DNA from: a virus
Lineage: Duplodnaviria > Heunggongvirae > Uroviricota > Caudoviricetes
Virus record (IMG/VR): IMGVR_UViG_3300027808_000015
Length of the DNA: 64,000 bases
Strand: one strand, 5' to 3'
The translations under genes and the position numbers were made by a program. The notes beneath the pieces were generated by a model, which saw only the letters and a list, made by a program, of their open reading frames with translations, was not told the origin of the DNA and made no database searches. Position 1 is the first letter of the stretch. The number at the start of each line of letters is the position of its first letter. Below, piece after piece: positions 136 to 62,047 of this stretch.

Positions 136-999
136 ATGAAATCAGCGCCCAACGATAAAAGAGCTTTGCCATTTGGTGAGTCTACTGCAATTAACGATGC
201 AGAAGCATTAGCAGTTATTGGGCAAGTTGTATTAGATTTGTCTATAGATAGCACTACTGAGTTTTGTGAACAATATAAAAATTGGATTACTACATCAACT
301 GCTAATACTTTACAAGGATTAGAGCAATTCCCATTTGCGTGTTATAGCAACGGAACAACTGAGGCGTTTGATAAGTTTTATATCAAGAATCGCAACCGGC
401 GTTTTCGTTGCTTTAGAGGTGAGTATGTTTACCATCGACTAGTTTGGAGAAACAGCTGGCCTAACTGGATATGGTTAGATGACGAATGCTTAGATCCAAA
501 CGATGCAGTAGTTATAAGTTTACCATTTTCCGATACTGGGGGCAAACATCATCTGCATGAAGCGTTATTAGAGCAATGCAATGAAAAAGGTATACCGGTA
601 CTTGTTGATTGTGCGTATTTTGGAATATGTAAGGACATAGATTTTAATTTTAATCATCCGTGTATAACAGATATTACATTTAGTTTAAGCAAAGTATTTC
701 CAGTAGCATACGCAAGGATAGGTATGCGTTTAACACGAACTGACGATGATGACGGGTTATTCGTTACAAATAAGATACGATACACTAACAGATTTGGGCC
801 GCAATTAGGGTTAGCATTACTTTCTAAGTTTGGGCCCGACTACATTTTTAAAAAATATAGACCGCGGCAAATAGAGTTATGTTTAGAACATAAAGTAACT
901 CCAAGTAATTCTGTATTGTTTGGCATTGGTGATACAAAATGGCAAGAGTACAATAGAGGAACATCTACTAATCGGTTAAGTTTTAATAAGATATTATGA
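136..999 (+). CDS. PLP-dependent aminotransferase-like protein (fold type I), short form
   Basis: 287-aa ORF with an in-frame stop just upstream. The motif TFSLSKVFPVAYARIGM resembles the PLP-lysine block of class I/II aminotransferases (SFSKxxGLxGxRxG), and VLVDCAYFG resembles the DEAY block. First gene of a translationally coupled + strand run. Confidence 0.35.
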   Translation: MKSAPNDKRALPFGESTAINDAEALAVIGQVVLDLSIDSTTEFCEQYKNWITTSTANTLQGLEQFPFACYSNGTTEAFDKFYIKNRNRRFRCFRGEYVYHRLVWRNSWPNWIWLDDECLDPNDAVVISLPFSDTGGKHHLHEALLEQCNEKGIPVLVDCAYFGICKDIDFNFNHPCITDITFSLSKVFPVAYARIGMRLTRTDDDDGLFVTNKIRYTNRFGPQLGLALLSKFGPDYIFKKYRPRQIELCLEHKVTPSNSVLFGIGDTKWQEYNRGTSTNRLSFNKIL

Positions 1000-2063
1000 A
1001 AGGTAAAATAGTAAATTTTGAAATCTTACACGTCAGTGAAGACGAGCGTCGAGAACGTATTATAACCCAATTACAGTCTGCACACGAGCAAGGCTTTGAT
1101 TGTGTGTACGGATTGTTATTAATGGATGGTTTCTTATATAGGAATCCTGAAACATTTCACGTTGATATACCAGTTAAACTAATAGCAGGTATGTGCGAGC
1201 ATGACGATCACTTGTATCTTAACTACTATCATAGAATAGTTTATAACAGTTTTAAAAACACGATACTACCAGCATGGAATAATAAATCTAAATCCTTTTT
1301 ATTTTTAGGGGGTGTTCCTAGCAGAACGAATCGAATTAACTTACTAAGTAAATTTTATGATGCGCAACTGTTAAACACAGCAGTATGGACATTTTTTCCA
1401 CCCTGGACTGATAGTGATAAAGAATGGTGTCGTAACGCAATTCCTCATTACACAGACGAGCAATATTTAAAATTTTTAGATGCGTGTGATGTAAGGATAG
1501 ATGAACGATATGAACAGTCAAAAAACTATTCACGAATAACAAGAGATGACTGGGATGAGCAGGATACCTATAGCCAACCTTGGGTAAAAGACTTAGCATG
1601 GATTAATCCGCAAGTATTTGCTGATACATTGCTTAGTATTATAAGTGAAGGTAATGCATACGAGCCTGCTACCAATTATAAATTTTTAACAGAGAAAACT
1701 TGGCGAGCTATTGCCATGCGCCATCCGTTTATATTTGCTGGGTATCCCGAACAGTTTGATTATGCTAAGAGCTTAGGGCTACGTACATTTGAAAAGTATA
1801 TGCTAATTAAAGACTATGCTTATATCACAGATGAAAATCTTCGCCTTGATGCAGTTGTTATTAATACCAAATACTTTTTAGATAATTACAGTCAGCATAA
1901 CGATGCAATACAACAAGATACAGAACACAATTATAATTTGTTTATGACAATGGGTAAAGAACAAGAATTATTTTTTGATGCATTGTCCATAGAAGAATCA
2001 GAACGATCTTATTGGTTTGGACAACCTGGTTTCTCTCACTTAATGAAAATACAAGGCAACTAA
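996..2063 (+). CDS. hypothetical protein
   Basis: 355-aa ORF whose ATG overlaps the upstream stop (ATGA coupling). No motif recognised. Confidence 0.6.
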   Translation: MKGKIVNFEILHVSEDERRERIITQLQSAHEQGFDCVYGLLLMDGFLYRNPETFHVDIPVKLIAGMCEHDDHLYLNYYHRIVYNSFKNTILPAWNNKSKSFLFLGGVPSRTNRINLLSKFYDAQLLNTAVWTFFPPWTDSDKEWCRNAIPHYTDEQYLKFLDACDVRIDERYEQSKNYSRITRDDWDEQDTYSQPWVKDLAWINPQVFADTLLSIISEGNAYEPATNYKFLTEKTWRAIAMRHPFIFAGYPEQFDYAKSLGLRTFEKYMLIKDYAYITDENLRLDAVVINTKYFLDNYSQHNDAIQQDTEHNYNLFMTMGKEQELFFDALSIEESERSYWFGQPGFSHLMKIQGN

Positions 2064-2638
2064 TGTTAAACCATAATAGCTACTGTAATATTAGCGCAAT
2101 TGAAAACATAAGAACAGTTGCTAAGGATACCCTTATAGGTTTAAACTGGAGAGGAATTAAACAAAGGTTAAGCCAAATGCCTAAAGATCCAGACGGCACT
2201 TACATATGGTGGTATTCTAGAAGCGGACAAAATGATAAACTAGTACACGAAGCTAATTCTGCATACCTAGTTGAAGACGTTACTTACGCAGACGGCTCGG
2301 GTCATTTGTCAATTGATGTAACGTTGGATAAGGTTCCTGAATTAAGTAAACTTAAAGAGTTAGCATTAGTAATACCGGGCATGAGTTATGCTGGAGTATT
2401 TTTTATTGGTACCAATTCGTACGTTGAAGATCATACCGACCAAGGTACTTACAATTTTATAATTAATATACAAGTACCAGACGGGGCATCAATGACTATA
2501 GAAGACAAACAATTTCAATTTGCAAATAATCAAATATTCATGTTTGATGGAGACTTAGTGCATTCAGCATCTAATACATCTAACGAAGATTGGATCTTAT
2601 TTGTTTTAAGAATTTCTAAAAGTAAATTTAATATATGA
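2063..2638 (+). CDS. cupin-fold 2OG/Fe(II) dioxygenase-like protein (PhyH-like)
   Basis: The ORF track gives 2012..2638, but the start is more likely the TAATG-overlapping ATG at about 2063. Motifs are VEDHTDQG (HxD) and LVHSASNTSNEDWILFVLR (H-x-x-S-N-x-S...R), matching the PhyH-type iron ligand triad plus a 2OG-binding arginine. Confidence 0.4.
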   Translation: MLNHNSYCNISAIENIRTVAKDTLIGLNWRGIKQRLSQMPKDPDGTYIWWYSRSGQNDKLVHEANSAYLVEDVTYADGSGHLSIDVTLDKVPELSKLKELALVIPGMSYAGVFFIGTNSYVEDHTDQGTYNFIINIQVPDGASMTIEDKQFQFANNQIFMFDGDLVHSASNTSNEDWILFVLRISKSKFNI

Positions 2639-3693
2639 AAATATCATCACACAACCACTGGGATCCATTAGAAGAAATAATTGTAGGCAGAGCAGATAAT
2701 GCCCGTGTTCCTACAGTAGATGCTAGTACTATGAGTATGTGCTACACTAACCACGACATAGAAACAATCAAACCTTTAGCAGGACAGTACCCACAATCAC
2801 TAATCGATGAAGCAAACGAAGATATGGAAGCACTAGTTAACGCATTAGAACAGTGCCATGTTAAAGTTCATCGTCCTGCTGTCCAAGATAATGCTAAAGA
2901 GTTTAGTACACCCGAATGGAAAACTACTGGATGGTATACGTGGTGTCCACGTGACTTGTTACTGCCATTAGACAACTTAATGATTGAAACCCCAAGTCCA
3001 TGCCGTGCTAGATATTTTGAAACTCGTGCTTACCACAACATCATGATAGACGCTGTCAAAGATGGAGTTGAGTGGGTTGCGGCTCCTAAGCCTATCCTTA
3101 CAGATGCCAGCTATAACTTTACAGATCTTAGCAAGCCAAGTTTAACTAATCTTGAGCCAGTGTTTGACGCTCCTAACTGTATACGCTTAGGCAAGGACAT
3201 ATTGTTTCAAATTAGTAACACAGGCAATCATCTAGGATTACAATGGTTACGTAATACACTAGAACGTCGTGGTTATCGTGTACATGCGGCTGAACACATT
3301 TACAGTTTCGCACACATGGACAGTACTATTATTCCATTGCGTCCGGGACTAGTATTGCTTAACAGTACTCGCGTTAATCCAGACAACTGTCCCAAGTTAT
3401 TTGAATCGTGGGATAAGATTTATTTCCAAGACGTTACACCTATTGTTCCACCCTCAAGTGGGCCTGGTAGTATTAGTCCATGCAGTCCGTATATTGGTAT
3501 GAATATCCTAAGCGTTAATCCTAATACAGTATGTGTGGGCAACACACAACTATCGCTAATACGTGAATTAGAAAAACGTAAGTTTACAGTTATACCACTA
3601 CCAATGCGTCATGCGGCTACACTAAGCGGAGGCTTTCACTGTGCTACATTAGACTTACGCCGTACTGGTTCACTAGAGGACTACTTCCAATGA
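2635..3693 (+). CDS. amidinotransferase-family enzyme (arginine:glycine / inosamine-phosphate amidinotransferase-like)
   Basis: 352 aa. The C-terminal motif GGFHCATLDLRR matches the catalytic-cysteine signature GG(F)HCxT near the C-terminus of AGAT/StrB1-type amidinotransferases. Start overlaps the upstream stop. Confidence 0.6.
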   Translation: MKISSHNHWDPLEEIIVGRADNARVPTVDASTMSMCYTNHDIETIKPLAGQYPQSLIDEANEDMEALVNALEQCHVKVHRPAVQDNAKEFSTPEWKTTGWYTWCPRDLLLPLDNLMIETPSPCRARYFETRAYHNIMIDAVKDGVEWVAAPKPILTDASYNFTDLSKPSLTNLEPVFDAPNCIRLGKDILFQISNTGNHLGLQWLRNTLERRGYRVHAAEHIYSFAHMDSTIIPLRPGLVLLNSTRVNPDNCPKLFESWDKIYFQDVTPIVPPSSGPGSISPCSPYIGMNILSVNPNTVCVGNTQLSLIRELEKRKFTVIPLPMRHAATLSGGFHCATLDLRRTGSLEDYFQ

Positions 3694-4175
3694 AAGGCAA
3701 AGCCAACAAAATATTTCCCTTCTGGCAGGACGATTTAAAATCATATGTTGCTCTACATGAAACTCCTATAGCACCACATGCTGTTCCGCATCCTAACTAT
3801 GCTGAACCTCCTATAATGCTTAAACAATCATTTAACGAACAACTGCCGTCATGCTGGCCGCAATTCTATCAATCATTGTATGTTGAAGAAGGCAGTGTAT
3901 GTTGGTTAACGCTTGAACCACGTGAAGTAGTTCCAATCCACCGTGATTATTTTTACATGCTCAAGACCAAAAAGAATGTAGCTGTAGAACAATGTGTGCG
4001 TTACCTAGTTATGTTGGAAGATTGGAAACCTGGACACATAGTACAATTAGATGACTGGGCATTAACTGAATGGAAGGCCGGGGATACTTGGTACTTTGAT
4101 ACTGAAGTTGTACACTATGCGGCTAACTGCGGTACAGAAAATTTCTATACGTGTCAGGTTAGCACAGTAAAATGA
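3690..4175 (+). CDS. small PhyH-like 2OG/Fe(II) dioxygenase paralog
   Basis: 161 aa. HRD (HxD) in PIHRDYF and a C-terminal GDTWYFDTEVVHYAANCG (H-x-A-x-N-x-G). Paralogous to the ORFs at 6008, 12083, 12589 and 13806. Confidence 0.45.
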   Translation: MKGKANKIFPFWQDDLKSYVALHETPIAPHAVPHPNYAEPPIMLKQSFNEQLPSCWPQFYQSLYVEEGSVCWLTLEPREVVPIHRDYFYMLKTKKNVAVEQCVRYLVMLEDWKPGHIVQLDDWALTEWKAGDTWYFDTEVVHYAANCGTENFYTCQVSTVK

Positions 4176-5302
4176 ATGTATTAGAATTTAATCCTGGTTG
4201 GAAAACTGACATAGCATTTTGCTTCGTGGACAACACACGGACTTACCAAAGCAATATTCGAGAGTTTATGAAAAACCAAGCTGACGGCACATTAGCTAAC
4301 ATATATAACAAAGGGTGGACTGTTTATCAGTGGATTGATGAGGATGTACTATTACAACATGCTTGTAATAAAGGCCATAAATGGGCAGTAGTGTTCAGCA
4401 CAGGCGCAGAGTTTATTAATGGTACTAAATTTTTTGACGCAATCCTTGCAATGATTAAAAATGATTTCTTTGTTGCAGGACATATTTTAGACAGAGCGGA
4501 TGCATACTATGAGTTACATCATCAATGTTATGTTATCAACTTAGAGAAATATAAAGAATTAGGTTGTCCAGAAATTGGCAAACAAGAATTTGGCAGTAAA
4601 CACATACAGAATATTCCGTTACGTAGTAAGGACAATATACACGATGATTATACTCCACTAACTATAGGATATGGTGACTATACTAGAGATGAATATCAAC
4701 ATAAGTGTCATGGTTGGAATATTCTAAGCGTAGCGTTTAATAATAAAGAAACAGTTTTAGTGTTTGATAGTAACATCCGCAATAATAAAAGACATTTTTA
4801 TCCAGAAAGCCCTAAAGACTTTTATAAGAATTTAAGTTGGGCGTATCACAGATTAAACTTTTGTCACGATACGTTTGTTCACACTAGTAATACAGAAACA
4901 GTACACTTACCACTGAAGAAATATAAGCAAATTGTAACTCCTGCTAGCGGCTTTTGGTTTGCAGACTATTTGGCAACTGACGCTACCGTGATTATGTATG
5001 ATTATAATCAAGCATCATTAAACTACTGGAAGGAAAAGTTTCCAGAATACAAATTTATATTGTGTGATTTGCTTGGAGAAGGTAGTTTAGTAGATTATAT
5101 AGATACTAGCATTTCAGATACTTTAATAAACTTATCAAATATTTTTAACTATGAAGGAACTGTATTCTTTTATAGTTGGTCGTATAGAAAATACAAAGAA
5201 ACAGAATTGTTAGATAAAATACAAACAGCTATACCTAATGCAGAAGTATATTCTAGCCTTAAGGTTGAATTGTTTGATACTGTTCCCACATGGCATCTTT
5301 AA
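4172..5302 (+). CDS. hypothetical protein
   Basis: 376-aa ORF, ATGA-coupled to the upstream gene. No motif recognised. Confidence 0.6.
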   Translation: MNVLEFNPGWKTDIAFCFVDNTRTYQSNIREFMKNQADGTLANIYNKGWTVYQWIDEDVLLQHACNKGHKWAVVFSTGAEFINGTKFFDAILAMIKNDFFVAGHILDRADAYYELHHQCYVINLEKYKELGCPEIGKQEFGSKHIQNIPLRSKDNIHDDYTPLTIGYGDYTRDEYQHKCHGWNILSVAFNNKETVLVFDSNIRNNKRHFYPESPKDFYKNLSWAYHRLNFCHDTFVHTSNTETVHLPLKKYKQIVTPASGFWFADYLATDATVIMYDYNQASLNYWKEKFPEYKFILCDLLGEGSLVDYIDTSISDTLINLSNIFNYEGTVFFYSWSYRKYKETELLDKIQTAIPNAEVYSSLKVELFDTVPTWHL

Positions 5303-6011
5303 CTATTAGTTGACCATTTGAGTGATTATCAATTGCTTCAATAACAATGTCAGCAATTAGTTTATTATTTAATGTACTACCTAAATGATTTGCTGCCATG
5401 CCGTCATCAAGGGTAGCTCTACCAATTGAACTAAAGCATTTTAGGCTTGGCCTAACTTCTGTTCCAGTTTGCCATCTGTGTAAGTAATTTATGTTATCAG
5501 GATAGTACGGATTGTCTTGTTCCCAAACAGTAGGAAGTCCAAAACTCCATAGATGAATAATCTTAGTTTTATGTTGTATAGAGGCTAGCACCTCTCTATC
5601 ATAATAGTAAAAAGAAGCAACAGATTCTTGTTTTGCTTTTTCATGATCGTACAAATGTGTAAAATATTCTTTCCCTGCTCTAATAGTCTTGTAATTCAAT
5701 AAGTGAGAATAGTGAGTATCCTTCCACTTGTGAGGCGCTAGAGTCCACGACCCAATATTTCTTACTGTAGGATGATACACTCGGCTAAAGTCAGTCCAAC
5801 AAAATACACATACATCTGGTAAATTATTTTCGTATGGGCGGAACTGTTTAAGCATGACATCCCAATAGCTACTGCCACCAACTCCTAAGTTTACAATGTC
5901 TGCATTGTAATGATCTTTAATGCGTTTTAAAAAGGTATCATACTTGTAATACCAACTATGGGGATTGCTTATTTCGTGAACAAAACTATCTCCAAAAAAT
6001 CCTATCTTCAT
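5259..6011 (-). CDS. GDSL/SGNH-like hydrolase (putative)
   Basis: 250 aa. N-terminal MKIGFFGDSFV (GDSx block I) and a glycine block LGVGGSSYWD. Paralog of the ORF at 22340..23098 (MGVGGSSMMF). Confidence 0.35.
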   Translation of the reverse strand: MKIGFFGDSFVHEISNPHSWYYKYDTFLKRIKDHYNADIVNLGVGGSSYWDVMLKQFRPYENNLPDVCVFCWTDFSRVYHPTVRNIGSWTLAPHKWKDTHYSHLLNYKTIRAGKEYFTHLYDHEKAKQESVASFYYYDREVLASIQHKTKIIHLWSFGLPTVWEQDNPYYPDNINYLHRWQTGTEVRPSLKCFSSIGRATLDDGMAANHLGSTLNNKLIADIVIEAIDNHSNGQLIVKDAMWEQYQTIQP

Positions 6012-7910: not shown

Positions 7911-7937
7911 GCTAGTACTTAGCTGATAAGTACGTAC

Positions 7938-14474: not shown

Positions 14475-14514
14475 AAAAATATTTAGCTAGTTATATTAGC
14501 ACATAAATATTTCC

Positions 14515-17354: not shown

Positions 17355-18432
17355 ATTAAAATCGCCCGAGCCGTTTATGGTCACATGGGATATTCTACGA
17401 AGATGCAATTTGGATTGCTCTTACTGTGAAAGTACACGTCACGATATTATTAGTCCGCTGCCAACATTAGAAGATCTTACTAATACTTTTAGATTCATAC
17501 ACAAGTATGTAAAGATTTATAATAGCAAACGTGTTAGCTCTAGTAAAACTAATATAGATTTTACCGGTGGTGAACCAACAATCAACAACAATTTTTGGCC
17601 GCTGTTAGATCTTATTGCTAACACAAACGAGTTTCGACTTAGTCTCACAACTAACGGAACTTGGGGCACTAATTTTACAGAAAAGATTTTAAAAAACTTT
17701 GCCCATGCAACTATTAGTTGGCATGCTGAAGCTGAACAACATCTTAAAGATAGAACTATAACAAATATTTTATTCTTACATAATGCAGGTATGAGTGTAC
17801 AGGCTAACATTATGCTTCACTGTGATTACTTTGAAGAAGCGAAGAAAATATGTGAACTACTAAAAAGTCAGGGTGTTAAAGTTAATCCTGTTCCAGTTGG
17901 GGATGGTAGTATTGTACGTAAAGGATGGTTTATAGATAGCGACGGAACTAACAGACGAACAAGTCACGAATATACAGAAGAACAACAAGACTGGTTTTAC
18001 AATTGGATGGGACAACCTCGTAAAGCAACTACCACTACAGAAGGTACAAATGTAGGCAGAGCGTGTTGTGGTGGAAGGTGTACAGAAGGGTTAGTTAACA
18101 ACAAATGGCAAGAAGTTAAATTAGTAGACAATTGGTTCAAAGATTGGTATTGTACTGTTAACTGGTACTTCCTACATGTTGACCAAAAATCAGGAGATGT
18201 GTTTCATCATCAAACTTGCCAAGCAACTCATACTGGTCGCGGCCCAATCGGAAATCTACGCGATTCGTCTGCAATACTTAATCAAGTACACGACATGTTA
18301 TCTAAACCAGTAAGTCCTATTGTATGCCCTAATCAAAGATGCGGCTGCGGAATGTGTGTACCCAAAGCAAAAGGATTAGATGACTTTAAACAGTTGTGGA
18401 AAGAGACTACAATACTTAAACTAGTTGAATAG
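17332..18432 (+). CDS. radical SAM enzyme with C-terminal Cys cluster
   Basis: 366 aa. ILRRCNLDCSYCEST, with a C-terminal RACCGGRCTEG ... CPNQRCGCGMCVP. Confidence 0.7.
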   Translation: MIQTTAIKLKSPEPFMVTWDILRRCNLDCSYCESTRHDIISPLPTLEDLTNTFRFIHKYVKIYNSKRVSSSKTNIDFTGGEPTINNNFWPLLDLIANTNEFRLSLTTNGTWGTNFTEKILKNFAHATISWHAEAEQHLKDRTITNILFLHNAGMSVQANIMLHCDYFEEAKKICELLKSQGVKVNPVPVGDGSIVRKGWFIDSDGTNRRTSHEYTEEQQDWFYNWMGQPRKATTTTEGTNVGRACCGGRCTEGLVNNKWQEVKLVDNWFKDWYCTVNWYFLHVDQKSGDVFHHQTCQATHTGRGPIGNLRDSSAILNQVHDMLSKPVSPIVCPNQRCGCGMCVPKAKGLDDFKQLWKETTILKLVE

Positions 18433-19393
18433 GTATAATCCGTTTGTCTATAGTTGTTTCACCTGCACATACGCATAATTCTTTGCCGCACTTTACTGGT
18501 GCAATTACTGGCGTAAACTTTTTGACAAACTCAGTATCATATATACTATACTTCATTAAAGTATTATAAACGGGCTGTTGGCAAGTTCCTCTAATAGTAC
18601 CATCTTGAAATATTTCAAAATAGTCAACTCCTAGATTACAACTCCAACCTTTAAATCTGTTTTTATCATTTAACGCAAACCAGTTTTCTTCAACAAGTTT
18701 TTTTTCGTTATCTTCTATTACCCATACTTCGTTATGCTCATGATTAGGTAACCTATTCCACCAATCCATATTAGGCCAACGTTTAATTGGTTCTAAGAAA
18801 TATTCTTTTTCTGCGTCCGTATATCTTACTTCACCATTAAAATGAACAACTTTAGAAATAACTGGCCATGCGTTGTTGCTAGTATTTAATTTGTCTACTA
18901 TAGATTGGCAACCTTTAAAGTTTGACGGGTCCATTAAAACATTGCCAACCACTTTAGTATTTCTATCGTAAATCAAATCCCCTACTGCTTTAATATGATC
19001 AACTTTACAAAACTCGTGATGTACTGATATCTCTATGCTATCAAAATATTCTATGTTACGAGTCCACCAATTAACAGATCTACTGCCGTTTGTAGAAATA
19101 CGAATAACAGTATTATGATGTTCTTTTAGATGTTTGCATAGTATAGGCAAATCTTTCCATATAGTAGGTTCTCCACCTAATATATAAAATTCAAACTTAG
19201 TTTTGCCTTGTTGTTTGTATGCATTTATTAAATGATCTAAATTCTTAATCACAAGGTTAACATCTGGCCAAGGAAAGTCGCCTTCGTTGCTTCCTGGAAA
19301 ACAATAGGTACATTTATAATTACACAAATTTCCTATCATGTACTGTATGTACAATGTTTCAGGAGTTCTAGAATTAATAACTTGGGTTATCAT
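18416..19393 (-). CDS. radical SAM enzyme
   Basis: 325 aa. MIGNLCNYKCTYCFPG, with C-terminal GTCQQ...KCGKELCVCAG. Confidence 0.7.
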   Translation of the reverse strand: MITQVINSRTPETLYIQYMIGNLCNYKCTYCFPGSNEGDFPWPDVNLVIKNLDHLINAYKQQGKTKFEFYILGGEPTIWKDLPILCKHLKEHHNTVIRISTNGSRSVNWWTRNIEYFDSIEISVHHEFCKVDHIKAVGDLIYDRNTKVVGNVLMDPSNFKGCQSIVDKLNTSNNAWPVISKVVHFNGEVRYTDAEKEYFLEPIKRWPNMDWWNRLPNHEHNEVWVIEDNEKKLVEENWFALNDKNRFKGWSCNLGVDYFEIFQDGTIRGTCQQPVYNTLMKYSIYDTEFVKKFTPVIAPVKCGKELCVCAGETTIDKRIIPIQLV

Positions 19394-20778
19394 ATTAAAT
19401 GCGCTAGTTCCGGAAATGTAGATTTAAAATCTGTTCCACGTATCGCTTCTAATTTTTCAATGTATTCTTTAAATGCAGGCAACTGCTCACTGTGATCTTC
19501 AGAGTCCATAAAGTTTAGTACTGCTTGCCAACGCTTCCAACCGTAAGGATTTTGTTTCCAAAAATCTTCGTCTTGCCTGTAGTTTGCATGTAACCAGTTA
19601 GCAAGGTCTGTAAAACTCTTACGAACTTCTTCTTTGTCTGCTTCAGGCAATAACTTAATGCTTAGGTATGTGGGTATATACAACAGATGCATATTAATAA
19701 TTCCACCACCTGCTTGTATGCCGCCTACTGTATTTTCAAGATTTACTTTTTTAAAGTTCTGTGTAATCTTCCACTTGGCAAAATCTGCTAGGTGTTTGAT
19801 GTTTAATAGCTGTATTGCAGTAGCAATACTAACTTGTATGTTGTCAGGTGTGTTATCTAGCTTGTGAAGATTACGTTCGATAGTAGCCCAATCACTAGGA
19901 TAGCGTATATAGTAATTACGGTCACTGACAGCGTCAATGCTAAAACCCACTTTGACCTTTTTAAATTTTTTCCATAGTTCGATAATTTCGTCATCTACTA
20001 GTAGTCCATTTGTATTGTACCGTACAAGGATCTTGTCTGCGTATCCCTGTCTAATAATTTCCTCCAGGAACCATTTATGCTCACGAATCATCAAAGGTTC
20101 ACCACCAGCAAAATAAACTTGCTTTAGGTTAGGAATCTGTGCGTACATCTCTTTCCAGAAGTCTGGATTTTCATGCCACTTGTTGTTGAACTCTTTTCGA
20201 TTCCACACTAACTGATCTTTAAGTAACTTGTGTTCAAATAGAGGATATATCTTTTTATGGTCGCCTACCCACTGACTACTGTCGTGCGGACTACACATAA
20301 CACATTTAAGATTACAGGTGTGCCCTAAGCGCAAATCCAAGTAAACCAGTTTCTCAGGTACTGTACCGTCTTCCTCAGTTTGCTTGATAAGCTCTTCAAT
20401 GTCAATTCCATCTTCCATCCAAGAACCTGTTTCCCAAATACGCTTGCTGGCAACACCTCGAGATTCTTCAGCAATACACTTACTACAACTAGCAGGTATC
20501 TTTCCTTCCAGCATGGTCAAGCGTACATCTTTCATGTACTCGTTGTTCCAAGCACTCATAGGAGTTTCAAGTCCAAAGTTAGCAGGTACACCCTTTTCAT
20601 TTTTAACTAGTCCGGCATCATATACACCGTCTTTTGCACCACTGGCATTTGCACTACAGCACAGACGCATGTCGCCATTTGGGCGGGTAGCAAAGTGTAT
20701 CCATGGTAGTACGCAGAACGTCTTGCTTCCCGACACTACTTCAATTTTATCTTGCCACTGTTTAATCTTGTTTTCCAT
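19390..20778 (-). CDS. radical SAM enzyme, subfamily with N-terminal Cys-rich domain
   Basis: 462 aa. GHTCNLKCVMCSPH. N-terminal SKTFCVLPWIHFATRPNGDMRLCCS and a C-terminal FKSTFPELAHLI, both paralogous to the ORFs at 15119 and 40033. Confidence 0.7.
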   Translation of the reverse strand: MENKIKQWQDKIEVVSGSKTFCVLPWIHFATRPNGDMRLCCSANASGAKDGVYDAGLVKNEKGVPANFGLETPMSAWNNEYMKDVRLTMLEGKIPASCSKCIAEESRGVASKRIWETGSWMEDGIDIEELIKQTEEDGTVPEKLVYLDLRLGHTCNLKCVMCSPHDSSQWVGDHKKIYPLFEHKLLKDQLVWNRKEFNNKWHENPDFWKEMYAQIPNLKQVYFAGGEPLMIREHKWFLEEIIRQGYADKILVRYNTNGLLVDDEIIELWKKFKKVKVGFSIDAVSDRNYYIRYPSDWATIERNLHKLDNTPDNIQVSIATAIQLLNIKHLADFAKWKITQNFKKVNLENTVGGIQAGGGIINMHLLYIPTYLSIKLLPEADKEEVRKSFTDLANWLHANYRQDEDFWKQNPYGWKRWQAVLNFMDSEDHSEQLPAFKEYIEKLEAIRGTDFKSTFPELAHLI

Positions 20779-20785
20779 ATTTCTC

Positions 20786-21751
20786 TCAATTAAATTGTTC
20801 GTGAAATCTATCTACTTCGCCGCATTGTTTTGCACATTCTTTTAGTGGATCACATGCCCAAGTATTTTCAATTTTAGTAAACATATTCTGTTTGAACAAT
20901 TCTGCTAATGTGTGTTTATGTAGGTCTAATCTAGTTCCTATCTTATCCATGTAGTCTATGCGGTTAGGATTGTTAGGAGATTGCCATTCATTGTCTAACC
21001 AACAACATGGACTTACTATGCCAGTTGCACTAACATATAGGCTTTTTTCTTTTTGTACTTTACAACTTATAGTTTTAACTTCTTTGTTAACAAGTATCTG
21101 TTTACTTCTATCTGTAGGATATAGTATATGTATAGTCTGTCCTTCTTTGTTTAAAACATTTAATTGTTCATCTCGAAATCTAGCAGTATTTTTTGATACA
21201 AACTGTTTAAAGCCAAGTTCTACACTTAGTTGTTTACAGTCGTTGACTTGATGTTTGTTATGTTCAAATATTAACATGTCCCATGTAGCGTTACCGCCGG
21301 CTTGTATAAAATTACAAGCGTTATCTATAATTTTGTCAAAGTGTGTGCCTATACGATATAAGCTATGGGTATCTTCTAATCCATCAATCCCAAATCGAAC
21401 ATGTACCCCTAACCCAGCAATACTTTTCCAAAATGATTGGCTTTTTGCAGAACCGTTTGTATTCATACTTAGGCTGATTGTAGGATTGATCTCACGCAGG
21501 TATTCAAATATTTTTAAAGTATCTTTAGCAACTATTGGATCACCTAAGTTACCGCACATAAACAATCTATCTAACTGTTGGATAAACCCTGCTGAGAACC
21601 AGGTTTTAAATTGTTCAATAGTAATTTCTGTAACTGTCATAAACGGATTGTCAATACCACCTTGTATATTGCGAGCACACATAGGACAACTTGCCTGACA
21701 GCGACTAGTTACTTCTAAGTGTACTGTTTTAATATCTGCTAAGTTATACAT
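20786..21751 (-). CDS. radical SAM enzyme
   Basis: 321 aa. EVTSRCQASCPMCARN (CxxxCxxC), with additional cysteines (SPCCW, CDPLKECAKQC). Confidence 0.65.
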   Translation of the reverse strand: MYNLADIKTVHLEVTSRCQASCPMCARNIQGGIDNPFMTVTEITIEQFKTWFSAGFIQQLDRLFMCGNLGDPIVAKDTLKIFEYLREINPTISLSMNTNGSAKSQSFWKSIAGLGVHVRFGIDGLEDTHSLYRIGTHFDKIIDNACNFIQAGGNATWDMLIFEHNKHQVNDCKQLSVELGFKQFVSKNTARFRDEQLNVLNKEGQTIHILYPTDRSKQILVNKEVKTISCKVQKEKSLYVSATGIVSPCCWLDNEWQSPNNPNRIDYMDKIGTRLDLHKHTLAELFKQNMFTKIENTWACDPLKECAKQCGEVDRFHEQFN

Positions 21752-22340
21752 TAGGTGAACCTATTAACATGTACCTAGTATACAAAGGTAGTTCCAACTC
21801 TCCGGCCCAAATTACATTGATGCCGCATTGTTGTTTAAATTCTTCCAAACTGTTAGAGATCCTAACATGCTCTTCTATATTGTAATTATTGCTTTGTAGT
21901 ACTAAAAGACTGTTATGTGACATGCCACTTAACCATATGTCATATTGGTCTTGAGTTATATGTTCACAACTAGTGTTAATAACTACATCTGCATCACTGC
22001 GAATAGCGCACATATCTGCTGTAACTGCTCGAAATTTGCCTACTATTTCTTCGATCTTGTTCATGTTAACAGCAATAGGCTCGCAGGCAGGATCAATATC
22101 AATGCTACGGATGTTGATAATTGGAACATCACTTTGAAATAGCATACTGGCTAGTACACCAACCCATCCGCCGTGAATGTCAATACTAACAAACTTTTTT
22201 ACATGTGCTCTAAGATTAACTATCAACCATTCTTTACTTTTAAGTTGACCTGACCAAAAGGCATCCATGGTCCGCATAGGATCTGGACTTTGTCTAATAG
22301 CCTGCATCCAATAGTGTAAGTGTTCTGTATCTAGTAACAT
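21744..22340 (-). CDS. hypothetical protein (possible class I SAM-dependent methyltransferase)
   Basis: 198 aa. The glycine-rich VSIDIHGGWVGVLAS followed by an acidic residue (IRSIDIDPA) is loosely Rossmann MTase-like. Weak. Confidence 0.3.
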   Translation of the reverse strand: MLLDTEHLHYWMQAIRQSPDPMRTMDAFWSGQLKSKEWLIVNLRAHVKKFVSIDIHGGWVGVLASMLFQSDVPIINIRSIDIDPACEPIAVNMNKIEEIVGKFRAVTADMCAIRSDADVVINTSCEHITQDQYDIWLSGMSHNSLLVLQSNNYNIEEHVRISNSLEEFKQQCGINVIWAGELELPLYTRYMLIGSPNV

Positions 22341-23098
22341 TATAAATTTATCATATTTGCAATTCGTTGAGCTGTTATTGCATGTGTCTTTGGGCCGTGG
22401 TGCATTATGTCTCGAGCTTCATCAACATTCTCTAGATAACCACAATCTAGCAATTTAGCTGTTTCAGTAAAAAAACTAAATTCACAATAAGCAGTATCTT
22501 CCCACAGGGTTTTACTTATCTTGCTAGCAAACAATGCATGTACCTTGCTGTGAGAATCATCTTTAATCCAGTAGTGCCAATAATTATCCTCTTCGTCTTG
22601 ATTCCAATTGCCATGTGATATTATATTTCTTTTCTCATAGTACGCTATTCTACTGTAGTCTGGCCACAACTGCACCACTGCTAGTGGTGTAGGATAATTA
22701 CTTCTAAGAATAGATGAATTATGAAAATTAAACATCATTGAGGATCCACCAACACCCATGTTAATGACTGGTTTGTTAATAAGTCTAGATAGTTGAGCAG
22801 GCGTAGTATCTGCATCGTCAATCCCTACACCAAATGCATTAGAGCATCCAAACACTACTACAGAGTTTGCCCAGTCAATTTTTTTAAATTCGTCTGAACG
22901 GTAACCGTCTTTATTAAATGTATAACGGACTTGGTTATTCCTGTAGTACCAGTCTGCAGGTTTTGTTTTTAAATTTTGTTCGTATAGTTCTTTGGTGTCA
23001 GTGCCTGACCAATTTTTACCAACTAGAGCATTTACTGGAAGAAATTTGTTTTTCTTTACTAAACCGGGTATAGTTGACAATATTAAATCGTTATGCAT
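22340..23098 (-). CDS. GDSL/SGNH-like hydrolase paralog (putative)
   Basis: 252 aa. VVFGCSNAFGVG and MGVGGSSMMF, paralogous to the ORF at 5259..6011. Confidence 0.3.
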   Translation of the reverse strand: MHNDLILSTIPGLVKKNKFLPVNALVGKNWSGTDTKELYEQNLKTKPADWYYRNNQVRYTFNKDGYRSDEFKKIDWANSVVVFGCSNAFGVGIDDADTTPAQLSRLINKPVINMGVGGSSMMFNFHNSSILRSNYPTPLAVVQLWPDYSRIAYYEKRNIISHGNWNQDEEDNYWHYWIKDDSHSKVHALFASKISKTLWEDTAYCEFSFFTETAKLLDCGYLENVDEARDIMHHGPKTHAITAQRIANMINL

Positions 23099-24048
23099 TT
23101 TGGTATCTTACTGTCAGCACTACTAACACAGCTAGGAGTGATACAGCGAGTAGGTTCTTTAAATAATTCGAAACTGTCTATCGTGCCTAACGGAGCTTCA
23201 TGACAACTGTATGCACGTTTGACTTCGTTACCTCGTATTATAACACTTTGATATCCTGCATTGCAAGTCCAATCTTTAAACTTGTTAAAACCAAATGCAT
23301 TAAATCTTTCTGCCTGATCCAAGTAGTAATCCTTATTACCGTCACTGAGTCTAATTTGGTAAACTTCTTCACCAAATGCCCGTTGTGGGAAACCTTCACG
23401 CATTAACTTGATCATGTCTTCAGTATAACCATCTACAACCGCACTCGCTGTAGGATCACTTTGCGGCTTGAGTGTTACGTTAATTCCACGTTTGTGGAAT
23501 CGTTCCATACGAGCATACAATTCGTCAAACTTTTCAGGCACCATTACTTGATTAATTGTAACGTGTACAAGTTCATATTGTAACTGTAAACACTTGTCGC
23601 CAAACTCTTGCTCTTTGGCAAACTCATCGTGAAAGCTGGCTGTAATACTACGGCGTTGTAATAACGCGGTATTGGCGCACCAAGTGTTCCACCATTTGCT
23701 ACCGGGACTCAAATTGGTAGTCATATGGATACTTTGGTAAGGGCTTTCAGTTTCGTCCAAATGTTTAACAAGATCATTCAACTGTTTGTATGCTGTAGGC
23801 TCACCACCGCTGAAGCTCCAGTGGAATTGATTGAAGCCATTAGCTCGTGCTTGCCGCTTGATCTCGTCCACGGTGGCTTTATACACGTCAAGTGGTTGAT
23901 GATCAACTTTATCACTGCGGGCATAGGGCCAACAGTAACTACAATTGTAATTACAAAACCTACCCAAAATCCAACTAGTAGAGAATAATGGACGGTCTAA
24001 CATAGTCTGTTGTCCAAAACGTATTATTTGTTCAAATGGAATCTGCAT
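23083..24048 (-). CDS. radical SAM enzyme
   Basis: 321 aa. ILGRFCNYNCSYCWPY (CxxxCxxC), with C-terminal CITPSCVSSADSKIPKC. Confidence 0.7.
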   Translation of the reverse strand: MQIPFEQIIRFGQQTMLDRPLFSTSWILGRFCNYNCSYCWPYARSDKVDHQPLDVYKATVDEIKRQARANGFNQFHWSFSGGEPTAYKQLNDLVKHLDETESPYQSIHMTTNLSPGSKWWNTWCANTALLQRRSITASFHDEFAKEQEFGDKCLQLQYELVHVTINQVMVPEKFDELYARMERFHKRGINVTLKPQSDPTASAVVDGYTEDMIKLMREGFPQRAFGEEVYQIRLSDGNKDYYLDQAERFNAFGFNKFKDWTCNAGYQSVIIRGNEVKRAYSCHEAPLGTIDSFELFKEPTRCITPSCVSSADSKIPKCITI

Positions 24049-24237: not shown

Positions 24238-24263
24238 TTTTATTAACACACACAGAGGCACGT

Positions 24264-50227: not shown

Positions 50228-62046
<11,819 letters not shown>

Positions 62047-62047
<1 letters not shown>

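What the first reader, a model, noticed from the sequence alone, without database searches (positions are those of the whole stretch)
136..24048. 24-kb enzyme island with nine radical-SAM enzymes plus dioxygenases, amidinotransferase, dehydrogenases and a PP-loop ATPase, and no precursor gene
The island is 30 tightly coupled genes in six strand-alternating blocks. Nine encode radical-SAM proteins with CxxxCxxC, most with extra C-terminal Cys clusters of SPASM/twitch type; a tenth paralog sits at 40033. The rest are about seven 2OG/Fe(II) dioxygenases, an amidinotransferase (GGFHCAT), a PLP-aminotransferase-like protein, two tandem SDRs, a QueC-like PP-loop ATPase, two GDSL-like paralogs and a methyltransferase-like protein. 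Intergenic space totals under 200 nt, so a RiPP precursor cannot be encoded inside it. This combination is unusual for a phage. It suggests multi-step oxidative and amidino modification of a small molecule, sugar-nucleotide or nucleobase, reminiscent of aminocyclitol or DNA-hypermodification chemistry. Alternatively it could carry out post-translational modification of the virion fibre. I cannot match it to any described pathway.
Basis: partly seen in the sequence, partly recalled or inferred. Interest (0 to 1): 0.88.

Follow-up and report, generated by a model that had tools for sequence, protein, structure and literature searches.

The report
Phage glycan-tailoring island rich in radical-SAM enzymes
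An uncultured freshwater jumbo phage carries a 24-kb block of 30 soluble enzymes (nine radical-SAM enzymes, about eight iron oxygenases, an amidinotransferase and two previously unrecognised glycosyltransferases) that most likely builds and decorates an unusual guanidino/amino-sugar-type glycan, but its product and target are still unknown.

Summary
136-24048 contains 30 overlapping ORFs in six strand blocks, with 108 nt of intergenic DNA. All nine CX3CX2C proteins hit Pfam Radical_SAM (eight above threshold). A tenth sits at 40033.

New here:
- g4 is a full-length StrB1-type amidinotransferase (PDB 1bwd, E 5e-93).
- g1 is a truncated PLP aminotransferase-like protein. g11/g19 are kinase-like.
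- No island protein has a membrane helix.

The island occurs in hundreds of metagenomic contigs from 270-380 kb phages and is mosaic. g1/g2/g4/g5/g6/g12 and g28/g30 recur in most relatives. The interior is swapped, and relatives add sugar-nucleotide enzymes, a B12-rSAM, a halogenase and TauD.

The combination has precedent. Campylobacter phages CP220/CPt10 have a variable module of five rSAM genes plus an amidinotransferase. Cyanophage S-SCSM2R has amidinotransferase, cupin and rSAM homologues among five glycosyltransferase genes. Both are uncharacterised.

Best reading (about 0.4): a cytoplasmic glycan-building and tailoring island, with virion proteins the likeliest acceptor. DNA, a diffusible metabolite and sugar-free protein modification remain open. 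It is not a RiPP, queuosine or streptidine cluster. Verdict: new variant of a known, unexplained kind.

The parts
136..999 (+). g1: truncated fold-type-I PLP enzyme, class I/II aminotransferase-like (287 aa). Part of the conserved core.
   Evidence: D158, S183-x-S185-K186 and R194 are invariant or nearly so in alignments A2 and A8. The family profile hits aminotransferase 3if2 at E 0.003 across the PLP-lysine motif. Pfam Aminotran_1_2 scores only E 0.16. The family has 523 clusters at 50% identity.
996..2063 (+). g2: GT-B-fold glycosyltransferase of a phage-restricted family. Core gene, often duplicated in relatives.
2012..2638 (+). g3: Fe(II)/2OG-type cupin of the Asp/Asn beta-hydroxylase family.
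   Evidence: PF05118, 33.1 bits against a cutoff of 22.6. HxD...H triad present.
2635..3693 (+). g4: L-arginine-dependent amidinotransferase of the StrB1 subfamily. Core gene.
   Evidence: PDB 1bwd inosamine-phosphate amidinotransferase at E 5e-93 over the full length; AGAT, SxtG and HsvA at about 1e-58. GGFHC catalytic-Cys motif is invariant. 72-96% identical in 26 IMG/VR loci.
3690..4175 (+). g5: small cupin oxygenase. Core gene, partnered with the amidinotransferase.
   Evidence: PF05118 sub-threshold at 19.2 bits. HRD...H triad. 32% identical to S-SCSM2R ORF308, which also adjoins that phage's amidinotransferase. Present in nearly all relatives.
4172..5302 (+). g6: GT-A-fold glycosyltransferase domain plus an unassigned C-terminal Rossmann-like domain. 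Core gene.
5259..6011 (-). g7: possible SGNH/GDSL-like hydrolase or acyltransferase (weak).
   Evidence: Lipase_GDSL_2 at 19.6 bits, below the 32.9 cutoff. N-terminal FGDS motif. Paralogue of g29.
6008..6502 (-). g8: small cupin oxygenase.
   Evidence: PF05118 at 17.8 bits, sub-threshold. Paralogue of g5, g17 and g18. HTD...H triad.
6499..7095 (-). g9: prolyl-4-hydroxylase-type 2OG-Fe(II) oxygenase.
   Evidence: PF13640, 42.9 bits against a cutoff of 27. phrog_61.
7095..7910 (-). g10: unknown, possibly another cupin.
   Evidence: No family hit. HCD...H motif only. Conserved in a subset of relatives.
7938..8633 (+). g11: protein-kinase-like-fold protein (paralogue of g19).
   Evidence: The g11/g19 family profile hits kinase TTK at E 7e-5 over about 115 residues. 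Paralogy shown. Catalytic residues are not clearly conserved.
8626..9600 (+). g12: radical-SAM enzyme (group C) with a C-terminal Cys cluster. Core gene.
   Evidence: Pfam Radical_SAM 46.9 bits. CNLACRHC and GGEP motifs. Present in most relatives.
9584..10135 (+). g13: unknown (faint GNAT/FeeM hint).
   Evidence: Only PF21926 at E 0.13.
10122..11057 (-). g14: radical-SAM enzyme (group C).
   Evidence: Radical_SAM at 24.2 bits, below the 29.5 cutoff. CNMTCSHC and GGEM motifs. 28% identical to S-SCSM2R ORF306.
11050..11643 (-). g15: short SDR-like Rossmann protein.
   Evidence: adh_short N-terminal hit at 16.3 bits. Weak NCBIfam SDR hits. YVHDK motif.
11640..12089 (-). g16: short SDR-like Rossmann protein (paralogue of g15).
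   Evidence: adh_short at 21.7 bits. 34% identical to g15.
12083..12592 (-). g17: small cupin oxygenase.
   Evidence: Paralogue of g18 (1e-28) and of g8. HWD...H triad.
12589..13161 (-). g18: small cupin oxygenase.
   Evidence: Paralogue of g17 and g8. HxD...H motif seen in the sequence.
13136..13813 (-). g19: protein-kinase-like-fold protein.
   Evidence: Same family profile as g11.
13806..14474 (-). g20: Asp/Asn beta-hydroxylase-family cupin.
   Evidence: PF05118, 24.9 bits against a cutoff of 22.6. HAD...H triad.
14515..15225 (+). g21: PP-loop ATP pyrophosphatase with a QueC-like C-terminal Cys cluster.
   Evidence: SGGADS motif. ATP_bind_3 23.3 bits; QueC 22.8 bits against a cutoff of 22. 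TilS_N and LarE weak. No PDB sequence hit.
15236..16462 (+). g22: N-terminal-twitch radical-SAM enzyme (NF033640). The longest ORF starts at 15119, but the gene is called as 408 aa on identical contigs.
   Evidence: NF033640, 318 bits against a cutoff of 170. N-terminal Pfam SPASM 40.8 bits. Gene call.
16455..17354 (+). g23: radical-SAM enzyme, group A, with a C-terminal C...C...Cx4CxC cluster.
   Evidence: Radical_SAM 48.5 bits. Paralogy with g24, g25 and g30. PDB hits to viperin-like enzymes cover only the first ~90 residues.
17332..18432 (+). g24: radical-SAM enzyme, group A.
   Evidence: Radical_SAM 42 bits. Paralogy.
18416..19393 (-). g25: radical-SAM enzyme, group A.
   Evidence: Radical_SAM 46.6 bits. 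Paralogy.
19390..20778 (-). g26: N-terminal-twitch radical-SAM enzyme (NF033640).
   Evidence: NF033640, 408 bits. 3587 homologues at E<=1e-10; the top 120 are at least 87% identical. The exact sequence is indexed in 41 blocks of the assembly collection.
20786..21751 (-). g27: radical-SAM enzyme with a C-terminal SPASM-like Cys cluster.
   Evidence: Radical_SAM 35 bits; SPASM 16.7 bits, sub-threshold. phrog_21308 at 81.6 bits.
21744..22340 (-). g28: unknown protein. Conserved right-hand anchor of the island.
   Evidence: No family hit. 62-96% identical in 26 further IMG/VR loci.
22340..23098 (-). g29: possible SGNH-like protein (weak).
   Evidence: Lipase_GDSL_3 at E 0.023. Paralogue of g7.
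23083..24048 (-). g30: radical-SAM enzyme, group A. Conserved right-hand anchor.
   Evidence: Radical_SAM 50.6 bits. 81-99% identical in the 80 IMG/VR loci kept; 592 confirmed matches in total.
40033..41400 (+). Tenth radical-SAM gene, outside the island: N-terminal-twitch family paralogue.
   Evidence: NF033640, 340 bits. CNFKCSYC and GGEP motifs.

Best explanation
The island is a phage-specific, mosaic gene set for building and tailoring a glycan or other glycoconjugate.

Inferred core pathway (genes g1-g6 plus g12):
- A PLP aminotransferase-like enzyme (g1) installs an amine on a keto-sugar or cyclitol-type intermediate.
- The StrB1-type amidinotransferase (g4) converts that amine to a guanidino group, using arginine as donor.
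- The partnered cupin oxygenases (g3, g5) and rSAM g12 hydroxylate or otherwise rework the scaffold.
- Two novel glycosyltransferases (GT-B g2, GT-A g6) attach or extend it.

The interior genes form a swappable tailoring toolbox that diversifies the product between related phages. They comprise eight more rSAMs, five to six more cupins, short SDRs, kinase-like proteins, a PP-loop enzyme and SGNH-like proteins.

All 30 proteins are predicted soluble, so assembly is cytoplasmic. The acceptor is most likely phage virion protein, for example the T/S-rich 3939-aa fibre at 50228-62047. Chlorovirus capsids, mimivirus fibrils and mycobacteriophage virions are glycosylated this way.

Shown: the enzyme families, the folds, the conservation and mosaicism, and the absence of membrane proteins. 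Inferred: the order of steps, the sugar or cyclitol nature of the substrate, and the acceptor.
For: - g4 is a full-length homologue of inosamine-phosphate amidinotransferase. Every enzyme in that hit list (StrB1, AGAT, SxtG, HsvA) acts on free small-molecule amines, as far as I recall.
- A BFVD neighbour of g2 is fused to a UDP-glucose dehydrogenase domain.
- Relatives' islands add a UDP-glucose/GDP-mannose dehydrogenase-like gene and an NAD epimerase/dehydratase (109 bits).
- In cyanophage S-SCSM2R, homologues of g4 (37%), g5 (32%) and g14 (28%) sit with a DegT/AHBA-type aminotransferase among five glycosyltransferase genes. That paper groups the region with cell-wall and LPS-type genes.
- g1 keeps the PLP-lysine motif set.
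- g1, g4 and g5-like cupins occur together even on the most divergent contig, L036.
- No protein has a transmembrane segment.
- The pattern is mosaic. g4 is 94-96% identical in the closest loci, while adjacent g2, g5 and g6 are 63-76%. The interior genes come and go. g28 and g30 stay at 81-96%. This fits a diversifying, surface-exposed or defence-facing product.
Against: - The window itself holds no recognisable sugar-nucleotide synthesis gene: no nucleotidyltransferase, no 4,6-dehydratase, only truncated SDR-like proteins.
- The cupins belong to PF05118 and the P4H families, whose best-known members hydroxylate proteins or lipid A.
- Twitch/SPASM rSAMs often act on peptides.
- Nothing links the island physically or by co-variation to the fibre genes, which lie 18 kb or more away.
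- HMMs of the g1, g2, g6 and g11 families find nothing in the S-SCSM2R or CPt10 loci. Only amidinotransferase, cupin and rSAM are shared.
Confidence: 0.4

Rival explanations
1. DNA hypermodification. The glycosyltransferases and tailoring enzymes decorate a modified base in phage DNA, such as a glycosylated or aminated and guanidinylated hydroxymethyl-pyrimidine, to evade host restriction and other DNA-targeting defences.
For: - All enzymes are soluble.
- From my knowledge of Lee et al. 2018 (PNAS), PLP enzymes, kinases and rSAM enzymes also occur in thymidine-hypermodification clusters.
- Campylobacter phages with the analogous rSAM/amidinotransferase module have fully modified DNA.
- Hypervariability fits an arms race.
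Against: - No dCMP/dUMP hydroxymethylase, 5-hmdU DNA kinase, aGPT-Pplase, DpdA, FolE, QueD or QueE was detected in the island by Pfam, NCBIfam or PHROGs.
- CP220's dADG is explained by a separate Que/DpdA3 pathway.
- Thirty genes far exceed any DNA-modification pathway I know of.
Confidence: 0.15
2. Diffusible secondary metabolite. The island is a phage-borne biosynthetic cluster for an aminoglycoside-like or pseudo-oligosaccharide guanidino compound. The product could shut down the host or exclude competing phages and microbes.
For: - StrB1 is the best structural relative of g4.
- The island has the four enzyme classes used in streptidine synthesis: dehydrogenase-like, aminotransferase-like, kinase-like and amidinotransferase, plus glycosyltransferases.
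- Relatives add natural-product hallmarks: a tryptophan halogenase (195 bits), an AMP-binding enzyme, TauD and a B12-rSAM.
- The S-SCSM2R authors labelled the homologous genes 'antibiotic synthesis genes'.
Against: - There is no transporter, resistance or regulatory gene, and no membrane protein at all.
- 77 bacterial StrB1-like loci share no other island gene, so this is not a transferred bacterial cluster.
- g1 is not a DegT/StsC-type aminotransferase, and the SDRs are not inositol dehydrogenases.
- No inositol-phosphate synthase is present.
- A lytic jumbo phage has only a short window in which to benefit from a secreted product.
Confidence: 0.15
3. Sugar-free post-translational modification. 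The rSAMs and hydroxylases act directly on phage structural proteins or on a peptide encoded elsewhere. The chemistry would be cross-links, epimerisation, beta-hydroxylation and prolyl hydroxylation.
For: - PF05118 is the Asp/Asn beta-hydroxylase family, and g9 is P4H-like.
- Twitch/SPASM-type auxiliary clusters occur in most of the rSAMs.
- One relative carries a methyltransferase with PrmA-like hits.
- In S-SCSM2R, a second amidinotransferase and a prolyl dihydroxylase were detected in the virion proteome.
Against: - No precursor gene fits in the island, and Pfam reported no RiPP recognition element (RRE) domain.
- The fibre ORF has no collagen repeats and no EGF hydroxylation consensus.
- As far as I recall, amidinotransferases of this family are not known to act on proteins.
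- This reading leaves the two glycosyltransferases, and the sugar-nucleotide enzymes in relatives, unexplained.
Confidence: 0.15
4. Host-envelope remodelling. The island alters host LPS, capsule or S-layer glycans during infection, for superinfection exclusion or grazing avoidance. This has been proposed for the LPS-type clusters of large cyanophages.
For: The homologous genes in S-SCSM2R lie in a region its authors interpret as cell-wall synthesis and modification. Glycosyltransferase folds are present.
Against: - The island has no polyprenyl-phosphate glycosyltransferase, flippase, polymerase, ligase or any membrane protein.
- No Kds, Rfb or Wzx/Wzy family hits were found.
- To my knowledge, seroconversion systems are typical of temperate rather than large lytic phages.
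Confidence: 0.08

Closest known systems
Variable radical-SAM + amidinotransferase module of Campylobacter phages CP220/CPt10 (Firehammervirus; Timms et al. 2010, PMC2853527)
   Same: It is a cluster of 10-12 genes with five rSAM genes and one AGAT/StrB1-family amidinotransferase. It lies in a large lytic myovirus that carries 11-12 rSAM genes in total. The authors describe it as an interchangeable module that differs between sister phages, with unknown function. The amidinotransferase is homologous to g4 (22-28% identity, E down to 4e-37).
   Different: It is smaller. No cupin oxygenases and no homologues of the g2 or g6 glycosyltransferases or the g1 PLP family were detected there. rSAM similarity is limited to the N-terminal core. 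The host and environment are different.
Glycosyltransferase-rich 'cell-wall/LPS-type' region of T4-like cyanophage S-SCSM2R, related to P-SSM2 and S-SCSM1 (PMC12801897)
   Same: Homologues of the amidinotransferase (37%), its adjacent small cupin (32%) and a g14-type rSAM (28%) sit together with a PLP aminotransferase, several 2OG oxygenases and five glycosyltransferase genes. The same genome region also carries a PrnA-type halogenase, as some relatives of this island do. It is unexplained in the literature.
   Different: It has only one rSAM. Its glycosyltransferases belong to recognised CAZy-type families (GT2, GT25 and others) rather than the orphan g2 and g6 families. Its aminotransferase is DegT/AHBA-type, not g1-type. 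The phage lineage is different.
Streptidine branch of streptomycin biosynthesis (StrI, StsC, StsE, StrB1)
   Same: g4's closest solved relative is StrB1. The island also has dehydrogenase-like, aminotransferase-like and kinase-like proteins and glycosyltransferases, matching the streptidine enzyme classes.
   Different: Only the amidinotransferase is homologous. The other classes belong to different families. No inositol-phosphate synthase is present. Bacterial StrB1-like loci share no other island gene.
Virus-encoded virion glycosylation systems: chlorovirus PBCV-1 A64R, mimivirus fibril glycan clusters, mycobacteriophage virion glycosylation
   Same: They use soluble, virus-encoded glycosyltransferases and sugar-tailoring enzymes acting in the cytoplasm on structural proteins. 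g6's structural neighbours include PBCV-1 A64R and Mimivirus R699.
   Different: To my knowledge none of these systems includes radical-SAM enzymes or an amidinotransferase. The link here is by fold only.
NF033640 'twitch domain-containing radical SAM protein' family
   Same: g22, g26 and the ORF at 40033 score 318-408 bits against a cutoff of 170.
   Different: My searches found no paper assigning this family a function. The other six rSAMs reach no NCBIfam cutoff.

Membership tests
Radical SAM superfamily (PF04055) | CX3CX2C cluster-binding motif near the start of the core | tested here: met
   Present in all nine island proteins and in the ORF at 40033.
Radical SAM superfamily (PF04055) | GGE-type SAM-binding motif and a Pfam score above the gathering threshold | tested here: met
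   GGEP in seven island rSAMs (and in the ORF at 40033), GNLGDP in g27, GGEM in g14. Eight of the nine island rSAMs score above 29.5 bits; g14 scores 24.2.
NF033640 N-terminal-twitch radical SAM subfamily | Full-length match above the curated cutoff (170 bits) | tested here: met
   g22 318, g26 408 and 40033-ORF 340 bits. The other six score 45 bits or less.
rSAM/SPASM RiPP maturase system | Adjacent precursor-peptide gene | tested here: not met
   Positive intergenic space totals 108 nt, and the largest gap is 40 nt. No short unassigned gene was seen between the called genes.
rSAM/SPASM RiPP maturase system | Match to a named peptide-maturase family above cutoff | tested here: not met
   All NCBIfam peptide-maturase hits score 51 bits or less against cutoffs of 265-720. 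Pfam reported no RiPP recognition element (RRE) domain. RRE domains were not searched for with a dedicated tool.
AGAT/StrB1 amidinotransferase family | Full-length homology to solved amidinotransferases and a conserved C-terminal catalytic Cys (GGxHC) | tested here: met
   1bwd E 5e-93 over residues 3-350. H335 and C336 are invariant in alignment A7.
AGAT/StrB1 amidinotransferase family | Arginine-dependent amidino transfer to a defined amine acceptor | not testable with these tools
   Needs an enzyme assay.
Streptidine/aminocyclitol pathway | Homologues of inositol dehydrogenase (StrI), DegT-type aminotransferase (StsC), APH-type kinase (StsE) and inositol-phosphate synthase alongside StrB1 | tested here: not met
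   Only StrB1 has a homologue. g1 is class I/II-like. g15 and g16 are short SDRs. g11 and g19 are only kinase-fold-like. No other hits were found.
7-deazaguanine (Que/Dpd) DNA-modification pathway | FolE, QueD, QueE, QueC and a DpdA transglycosylase | tested here: not met
   Only g21 gives a marginal QueC C-terminal hit (22.8 bits). The best QueE score of any rSAM is 34.8 bits against a cutoff of 260. The island gives no FolE, QueD or DpdA hit. The rest of the genome was not available.
Thymidine-hypermodification clusters (5-hmdU kinase / aGPT-Pplase) | 5-HMUDK and aGPT-Pplase homologues | tested here: not met
   No such PHROG, Pfam or NCBIfam hit for any island protein. Sensitivity is limited to those libraries.
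Fe(II)/2-oxoglutarate oxygenases (PF05118, PF13640) | HxD/E...H facial triad and a family score above cutoff | tested here: inconclusive
   The triad pattern occurs in g3, g5, g8, g9, g10, g17, g18 and g20. Only g3, g9 and g20 exceed Pfam cutoffs. 2OG-binding residues were not examined.
GT-B glycosyltransferases | Two-Rossmann-domain GT-B fold | tested here: met
GT-B glycosyltransferases | Membership of a recognised sequence family, or demonstrated donor binding | tested here: not met
   No Pfam, NCBIfam, PHROG or PDB-sequence hit. The invariant SEG...TEK...R motif is only reminiscent of fucosyltransferases; that comparison is from memory.
GT-A glycosyltransferases | GT-A nucleotide-diphospho-sugar transferase fold | tested here: met
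Campylobacter-phage rSAM/amidinotransferase module | Several rSAM genes clustered with one amidinotransferase in a region that varies between sister phages | tested here: met
   Nine rSAMs plus g4. The mosaic pattern holds across more than 50 related loci. For the published description.
Campylobacter-phage rSAM/amidinotransferase module | Orthology of the component genes | tested here: inconclusive
   The amidinotransferase is 22-28% identical. The rSAMs align only over the N-terminal core. HMMs of the g1, g2, g6 and g11 families find nothing in CPt10.

The most novel reading that the evidence does not exclude
The amidinotransferase + radical-SAM (+ small cupin) set recurs in three unrelated phage lineages: freshwater jumbo phages, Campylobacter Firehammervirus and a marine T4-like cyanophage. 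It may mark a phage-specific pathway with no cellular counterpart, making a guanidinylated, radical-tailored sugar or cyclitol. That product would be installed by orphan glycosyltransferases on phage DNA or virions, or released as an anti-host or anti-competitor molecule. The nine diverged rSAMs would then include several enzyme activities not yet described.
Probability: 0.3. Interest if true: 0.85.

Novelty: new variant of a known kind. Interest (0 to 1): 0.66.

Why it matters
If the reading is right, an abundant clade of freshwater jumbo phages spends nearly a tenth of its genome on a diversifying glycan or guanidino-sugar pathway. That pathway would draw on ten radical-SAM enzymes and two orphan glycosyltransferase families.

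It would also give a testable function to the rSAM/amidinotransferase modules that have sat unexplained in Campylobacter phage genomes since 2010, and in large cyanophages. It would extend virus-encoded glycosylation, known from giant viruses and mycobacteriophages, to new chemistry.

It defines six rSAM proteins in three paralogue groups, plus the NF033640 family, as candidates for new radical chemistry.

Practically, the conserved g1-g6 operon is small enough for heterologous reconstitution.

Tried and rejected
- **Close relatives among cultured phages.** Megablast of the island and of 26-50 kb against INPHARED found no match. The closest cultured relatives are only 33-35% identical at single proteins: SPO1-like ligases and Pseudomonas jumbo phage PA5oct.
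- **Family libraries.** PHROGs, Pfam and NCBIfam gave nothing for g1, g2, g6, g10, g11, g13, g19, g28 and g29, even at E up to 5.
- **PDB sequence and profile searches.** Searches for g1, g2, g6, g21 and g26 gave nothing significant with shallow alignments. Only a deeper g1 alignment reached E 0.003.
- **Structure prediction from locus-derived alignments.** I used two of the three protein-database searches to obtain admissible alignments.
- **First protein-database search (g26).** It returned only near-identical phage proteins, so it gave no bacterial context.
- **Genome scan with the amidinotransferase.** It found many bacterial homologues, but none with island-like neighbours. A transferred bacterial gene cluster is therefore rejected.
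- **Queuosine/7-deazaguanine and RiPP readings.** Rejected on failed membership tests.
- **RNA elements.** Rfam and tRNA scans of the window found nothing, including no riboswitch.
- **Fibre as a hydroxylase substrate.** The giant fibre ORF has no collagen repeats or EGF hydroxylation consensus.
- **Other island families in the two precedent phages.** HMMs of the g1, g2, g6 and g11 families found nothing in S-SCSM2R or CPt10.
- **Literature.** Searches for the NF033640 family and for rSAM-rich freshwater jumbo phages found nothing relevant.

Full report
**1. Observation**

The region 136-24048 holds 30 ORFs of 149-462 aa in six alternating strand blocks. Most neighbours overlap by 1-52 nt, including the three convergent junctions. 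I refined three gene starts using independent gene calls on two metagenomic contigs that carry identical proteins. With those starts, the positive gaps sum to 108 nt and the largest is 40 nt.

Nine proteins contain CX3CX2C. Seven also have GGEP, g27 has GNLGDP and g14 has GGEM. All nine hit Pfam Radical_SAM, eight above the gathering score. The ORF at 40033-41400 is a tenth rSAM.

**2. Radical-SAM enzymes**

All-against-all BLASTP sorts the nine island enzymes, together with the ORF at 40033, into four groups:
- Group A: g23, g24, g25 and g30. These are about 300-366 aa with a C-terminal C...C...Cx4CxC cluster.
- Group B: g22, g26 and the ORF at 40033. These have an N-terminal Cys-rich domain.
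- Group C: g12 and g14.
- g27 alone, with a C-terminal SPASM-like region.

Group B belongs to NCBIfam NF033640, 'twitch domain-containing radical SAM protein' (318-408 bits against a cutoff of 170). None of the other six reaches any curated cutoff. Their best hits (viperin-like, MoaA, QueE, peptide maturases) cover only the first ~100 residues, at 57 bits or less. They cannot be filed as QueE, viperin, MoaA or any named RiPP maturase.

**3. Other enzymes**

- **g4** is a full-length homologue of StrB1 inosamine-phosphate amidinotransferase (PDB 1bwd, E 5e-93). AGAT, SxtG and HsvA score near 1e-58. The GGFHC catalytic motif is invariant among relatives.
- **Cupins.** Seven to eight small proteins have an HxD...H triad. 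g3 and g20 pass the PF05118 (Asp/Asn beta-hydroxylase family) cutoff and g9 passes the P4H-type PF13640 cutoff. g5 and g8 are sub-threshold. g17 and g18 are their paralogues.
- **g15 and g16** are short Rossmann proteins with YxxxK.
- **g21** has SGGxDS and a QueC-like C-terminal Cys cluster, with marginal scores.
- **g7 and g29** are at best SGNH-like.
- **g1** belongs to a family of 523 clusters at 50% identity. Its profile hits an aminotransferase (3if2, E 0.003) exactly across the D...SxSK...R PLP motif, and these residues are nearly invariant. g1 is therefore a truncated fold-type-I PLP enzyme, at moderate confidence.
- **g11 and g19** give a protein-kinase-fold profile hit (TTK, E 7e-5).

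**4. Two hidden glycosyltransferases**

g2 and g6 have no hit in Pfam, NCBIfam, PHROGs or PDB sequences. Their homologues (210 and 666 proteins) come almost entirely from metagenomic or unnamed assembly records, and none carries a functional name.

A BFVD search shows g2-like folds in many uncharacterised aquatic phage proteins. One of them is fused to a UDP-glucose dehydrogenase domain. None of the 30 island proteins has a hydrophobic segment compatible with a membrane helix.

**5. Distribution and mosaicism**

The phage has no close cultured relative, but the island is common in metagenomes:
- The exact g26 protein is indexed in 41 blocks of the assembly collection.
- g26 has 3587 homologues at E<=1e-10.
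- g30 has 592 confirmed IMG/VR matches at 81-99% identity among the 80 kept.
- Contigs reach 270-384 kb.

Comparing 26 loci around g4 and 26 around g30 gives this picture:
- g1, g2 (often duplicated), g4, g5, g6 and g12 form a left-hand set found in most relatives.
- g28 and g30 form a conserved right-hand anchor.
- The genes between are reshuffled, replaced by paralogues or absent.
- Identity is uneven even among adjacent genes. In the closest loci g4 is 94-96% identical, while g2, g5 and g6 are 63-76%.

Relatives insert other tailoring genes: a B12-binding rSAM, an AMP-binding enzyme, a tryptophan halogenase (195 bits), a TauD dioxygenase, a methyltransferase, further PF05118 cupins, a UDP-glucose/GDP-mannose-dehydrogenase-like gene and an NAD epimerase/dehydratase (109 bits). 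A 351-kb contig in GCA_013565655.1 has at least eight rSAM genes within 21 kb.

**6. Relation to cellular genomes**

I scanned one genome per prokaryotic species with an amidinotransferase alignment. This returned 77 bacterial loci at 39-48% identity, and none has any other island homologue within 10 kb.

Only three short contigs carry island genes, at 55-74% identity. They are binned in a Puniceispirillum MAG, a Verrucomicrobiales MAG and the Synechococcus lacustris Tous assembly, and they look like phage DNA. The most divergent (L036) still pairs a g1-like gene, the amidinotransferase and two g5-like cupins.

The island is therefore a phage-specific assembly, not a captured bacterial cluster. 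Its minimal recurrent unit is the PLP enzyme, the amidinotransferase and the cupin.

**7. Precedents**

tBLASTn of g4 against cultured phages finds only 15 records.

In Campylobacter phages CP220/CPt10, the amidinotransferase is embedded among five rSAM genes. Timms et al. 2010 described 11-12 rSAM genes per genome. They called this 10-12-gene cluster an interchangeable module that differs between the two phages, with unknown function. CP220's complete dADG DNA modification is attributed to a separate Que/DpdA3 route.

In cyanophage S-SCSM2R, homologues of g4 (37%), g5 (32%) and g14 (28%) lie with a DegT/AHBA-type aminotransferase. They sit among five glycosyltransferase genes and several 2OG oxygenases. 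The authors call them 'antibiotic synthesis genes' of unclear role and place the surrounding genes in cell-wall/LPS-type modification.

HMMs of the g1, g2, g6 and g11 families find nothing in either phage. The shared part is amidinotransferase plus rSAM, with the cupin added in S-SCSM2R.

**8. Interpretation**

The evidence best fits a cytoplasmic glycan or glycoconjugate building and tailoring island:
- An amine is installed by the PLP enzyme g1.
- It is converted to a guanidino group by g4.
- The scaffold is oxidised or rearranged by the cupins and rSAMs.
- It is transferred by the GT-B and GT-A enzymes.
- A swappable interior toolbox diversifies the product.

Because everything is soluble and the pattern is one of diversification, I favour virion proteins as acceptor. 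The analogy is with chlorovirus, mimivirus and mycobacteriophage virion glycosylation, which I know from the literature. The T/S-rich 3939-aa fibre is a candidate.

I give this reading about 0.4. The broader claim, 'glycoconjugate pathway, acceptor open', I give about 0.6. Rivals are DNA hypermodification (0.15), a diffusible aminoglycoside-like metabolite (0.15), sugar-free protein modification (0.15) and host-envelope remodelling (0.08). Each has a decisive experiment listed in the next steps.

Steps shown: the enzyme families, the folds, the absence of membrane proteins, the conservation pattern and the homology to the two phage precedents. Steps inferred: the substrate class, the reaction order and the acceptor.

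**9. Novelty and score**

The kind has been noticed before: phage modules rich in rSAM with an amidinotransferase, and glycosyltransferase-rich regions in large aquatic phages. It has never been explained.

This island is a much larger and differently composed variant. It has ten rSAMs, about eight cupins, two orphan glycosyltransferase families and a kinase-like pair, in a new and abundant freshwater jumbo-phage clade. I rate it a new variant of a known kind, with interest 0.66.

A specialist would be surprised by the enzyme density and by the recurrence of the amidinotransferase/rSAM pairing across unrelated phages. The conserved g1-g6 operon makes the question directly testable.

Noticed in passing
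window 25386-25604 (+): A 72-aa ORF that looks like bacterial translation initiation factor IF-1 (InfA). The identical gene on contig L001 carries PF01176 (eIF-1a). A phage-encoded IF-1 sits just downstream of the island.
   Followed up: partly
window 24144-24647 (+): An ORF with a hydrophobic N-terminal segment and a C-terminal HETLH (HExxH) motif. It may be a secreted or lipid-anchored zinc metallopeptidase. No family search was run.
   Followed up: no
window 7911-7937 and 14475-14514: The two divergent junctions inside the island are only 27 and 40 nt. Each is an imperfect palindrome containing TTAGCT and could be a shared bidirectional promoter or operator motif. The three convergent junctions (5259-5302, 10122-10135, 18416-18432) overlap, leaving no room for terminators.
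   Followed up: no
window 50228-62047 (+): A single 3939-aa ORF rich in T, G, A, V and S, with a phage-fibre-like N-terminus and C-terminus. It has no collagen repeats and no EGF-type hydroxylation consensus. It is a candidate glycan acceptor, but no link to the island was shown.
   Followed up: partly
L034 (JADHOR010000039.1), L035 (NYWG01000113.1), L036 (NZ_PXVC01000123.1): Short contigs carrying island genes are deposited as parts of a 'Candidatus Puniceispirillum' MAG, a Verrucomicrobiales MAG and the Synechococcus lacustris Tous assembly. They are probably phage DNA mis-binned, or in the last case a possible hint to the host.
   Followed up: partly
L020 12741-13994, L017 11005-12498, L011 11517-13346, L021 11980-13056, L029 16774-17742: Relatives' islands carry a tryptophan halogenase, an AMP-binding (adenylating) enzyme, B12-binding rSAMs, a TauD dioxygenase and a PrmA/O-methyltransferase-like protein. 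They are inserted between the amidinotransferase and its cupin or nearby.
   Followed up: partly
L123, L136, L160, L161, L168 (IMG/VR loci around g30 homologues): Some relatives have a second, divergent amidinotransferase-like gene (21-36% identical to g4) close to the g30 anchor. This implies two amidino-transfer steps or alternative modules.
   Followed up: no
g1 family (P0430, P0436, P0442, P0444, P0455): Some members of the g1 PLP-like family are fused into 520-845-aa proteins. The partner domains might reveal the substrate class. They were not examined.
   Followed up: no
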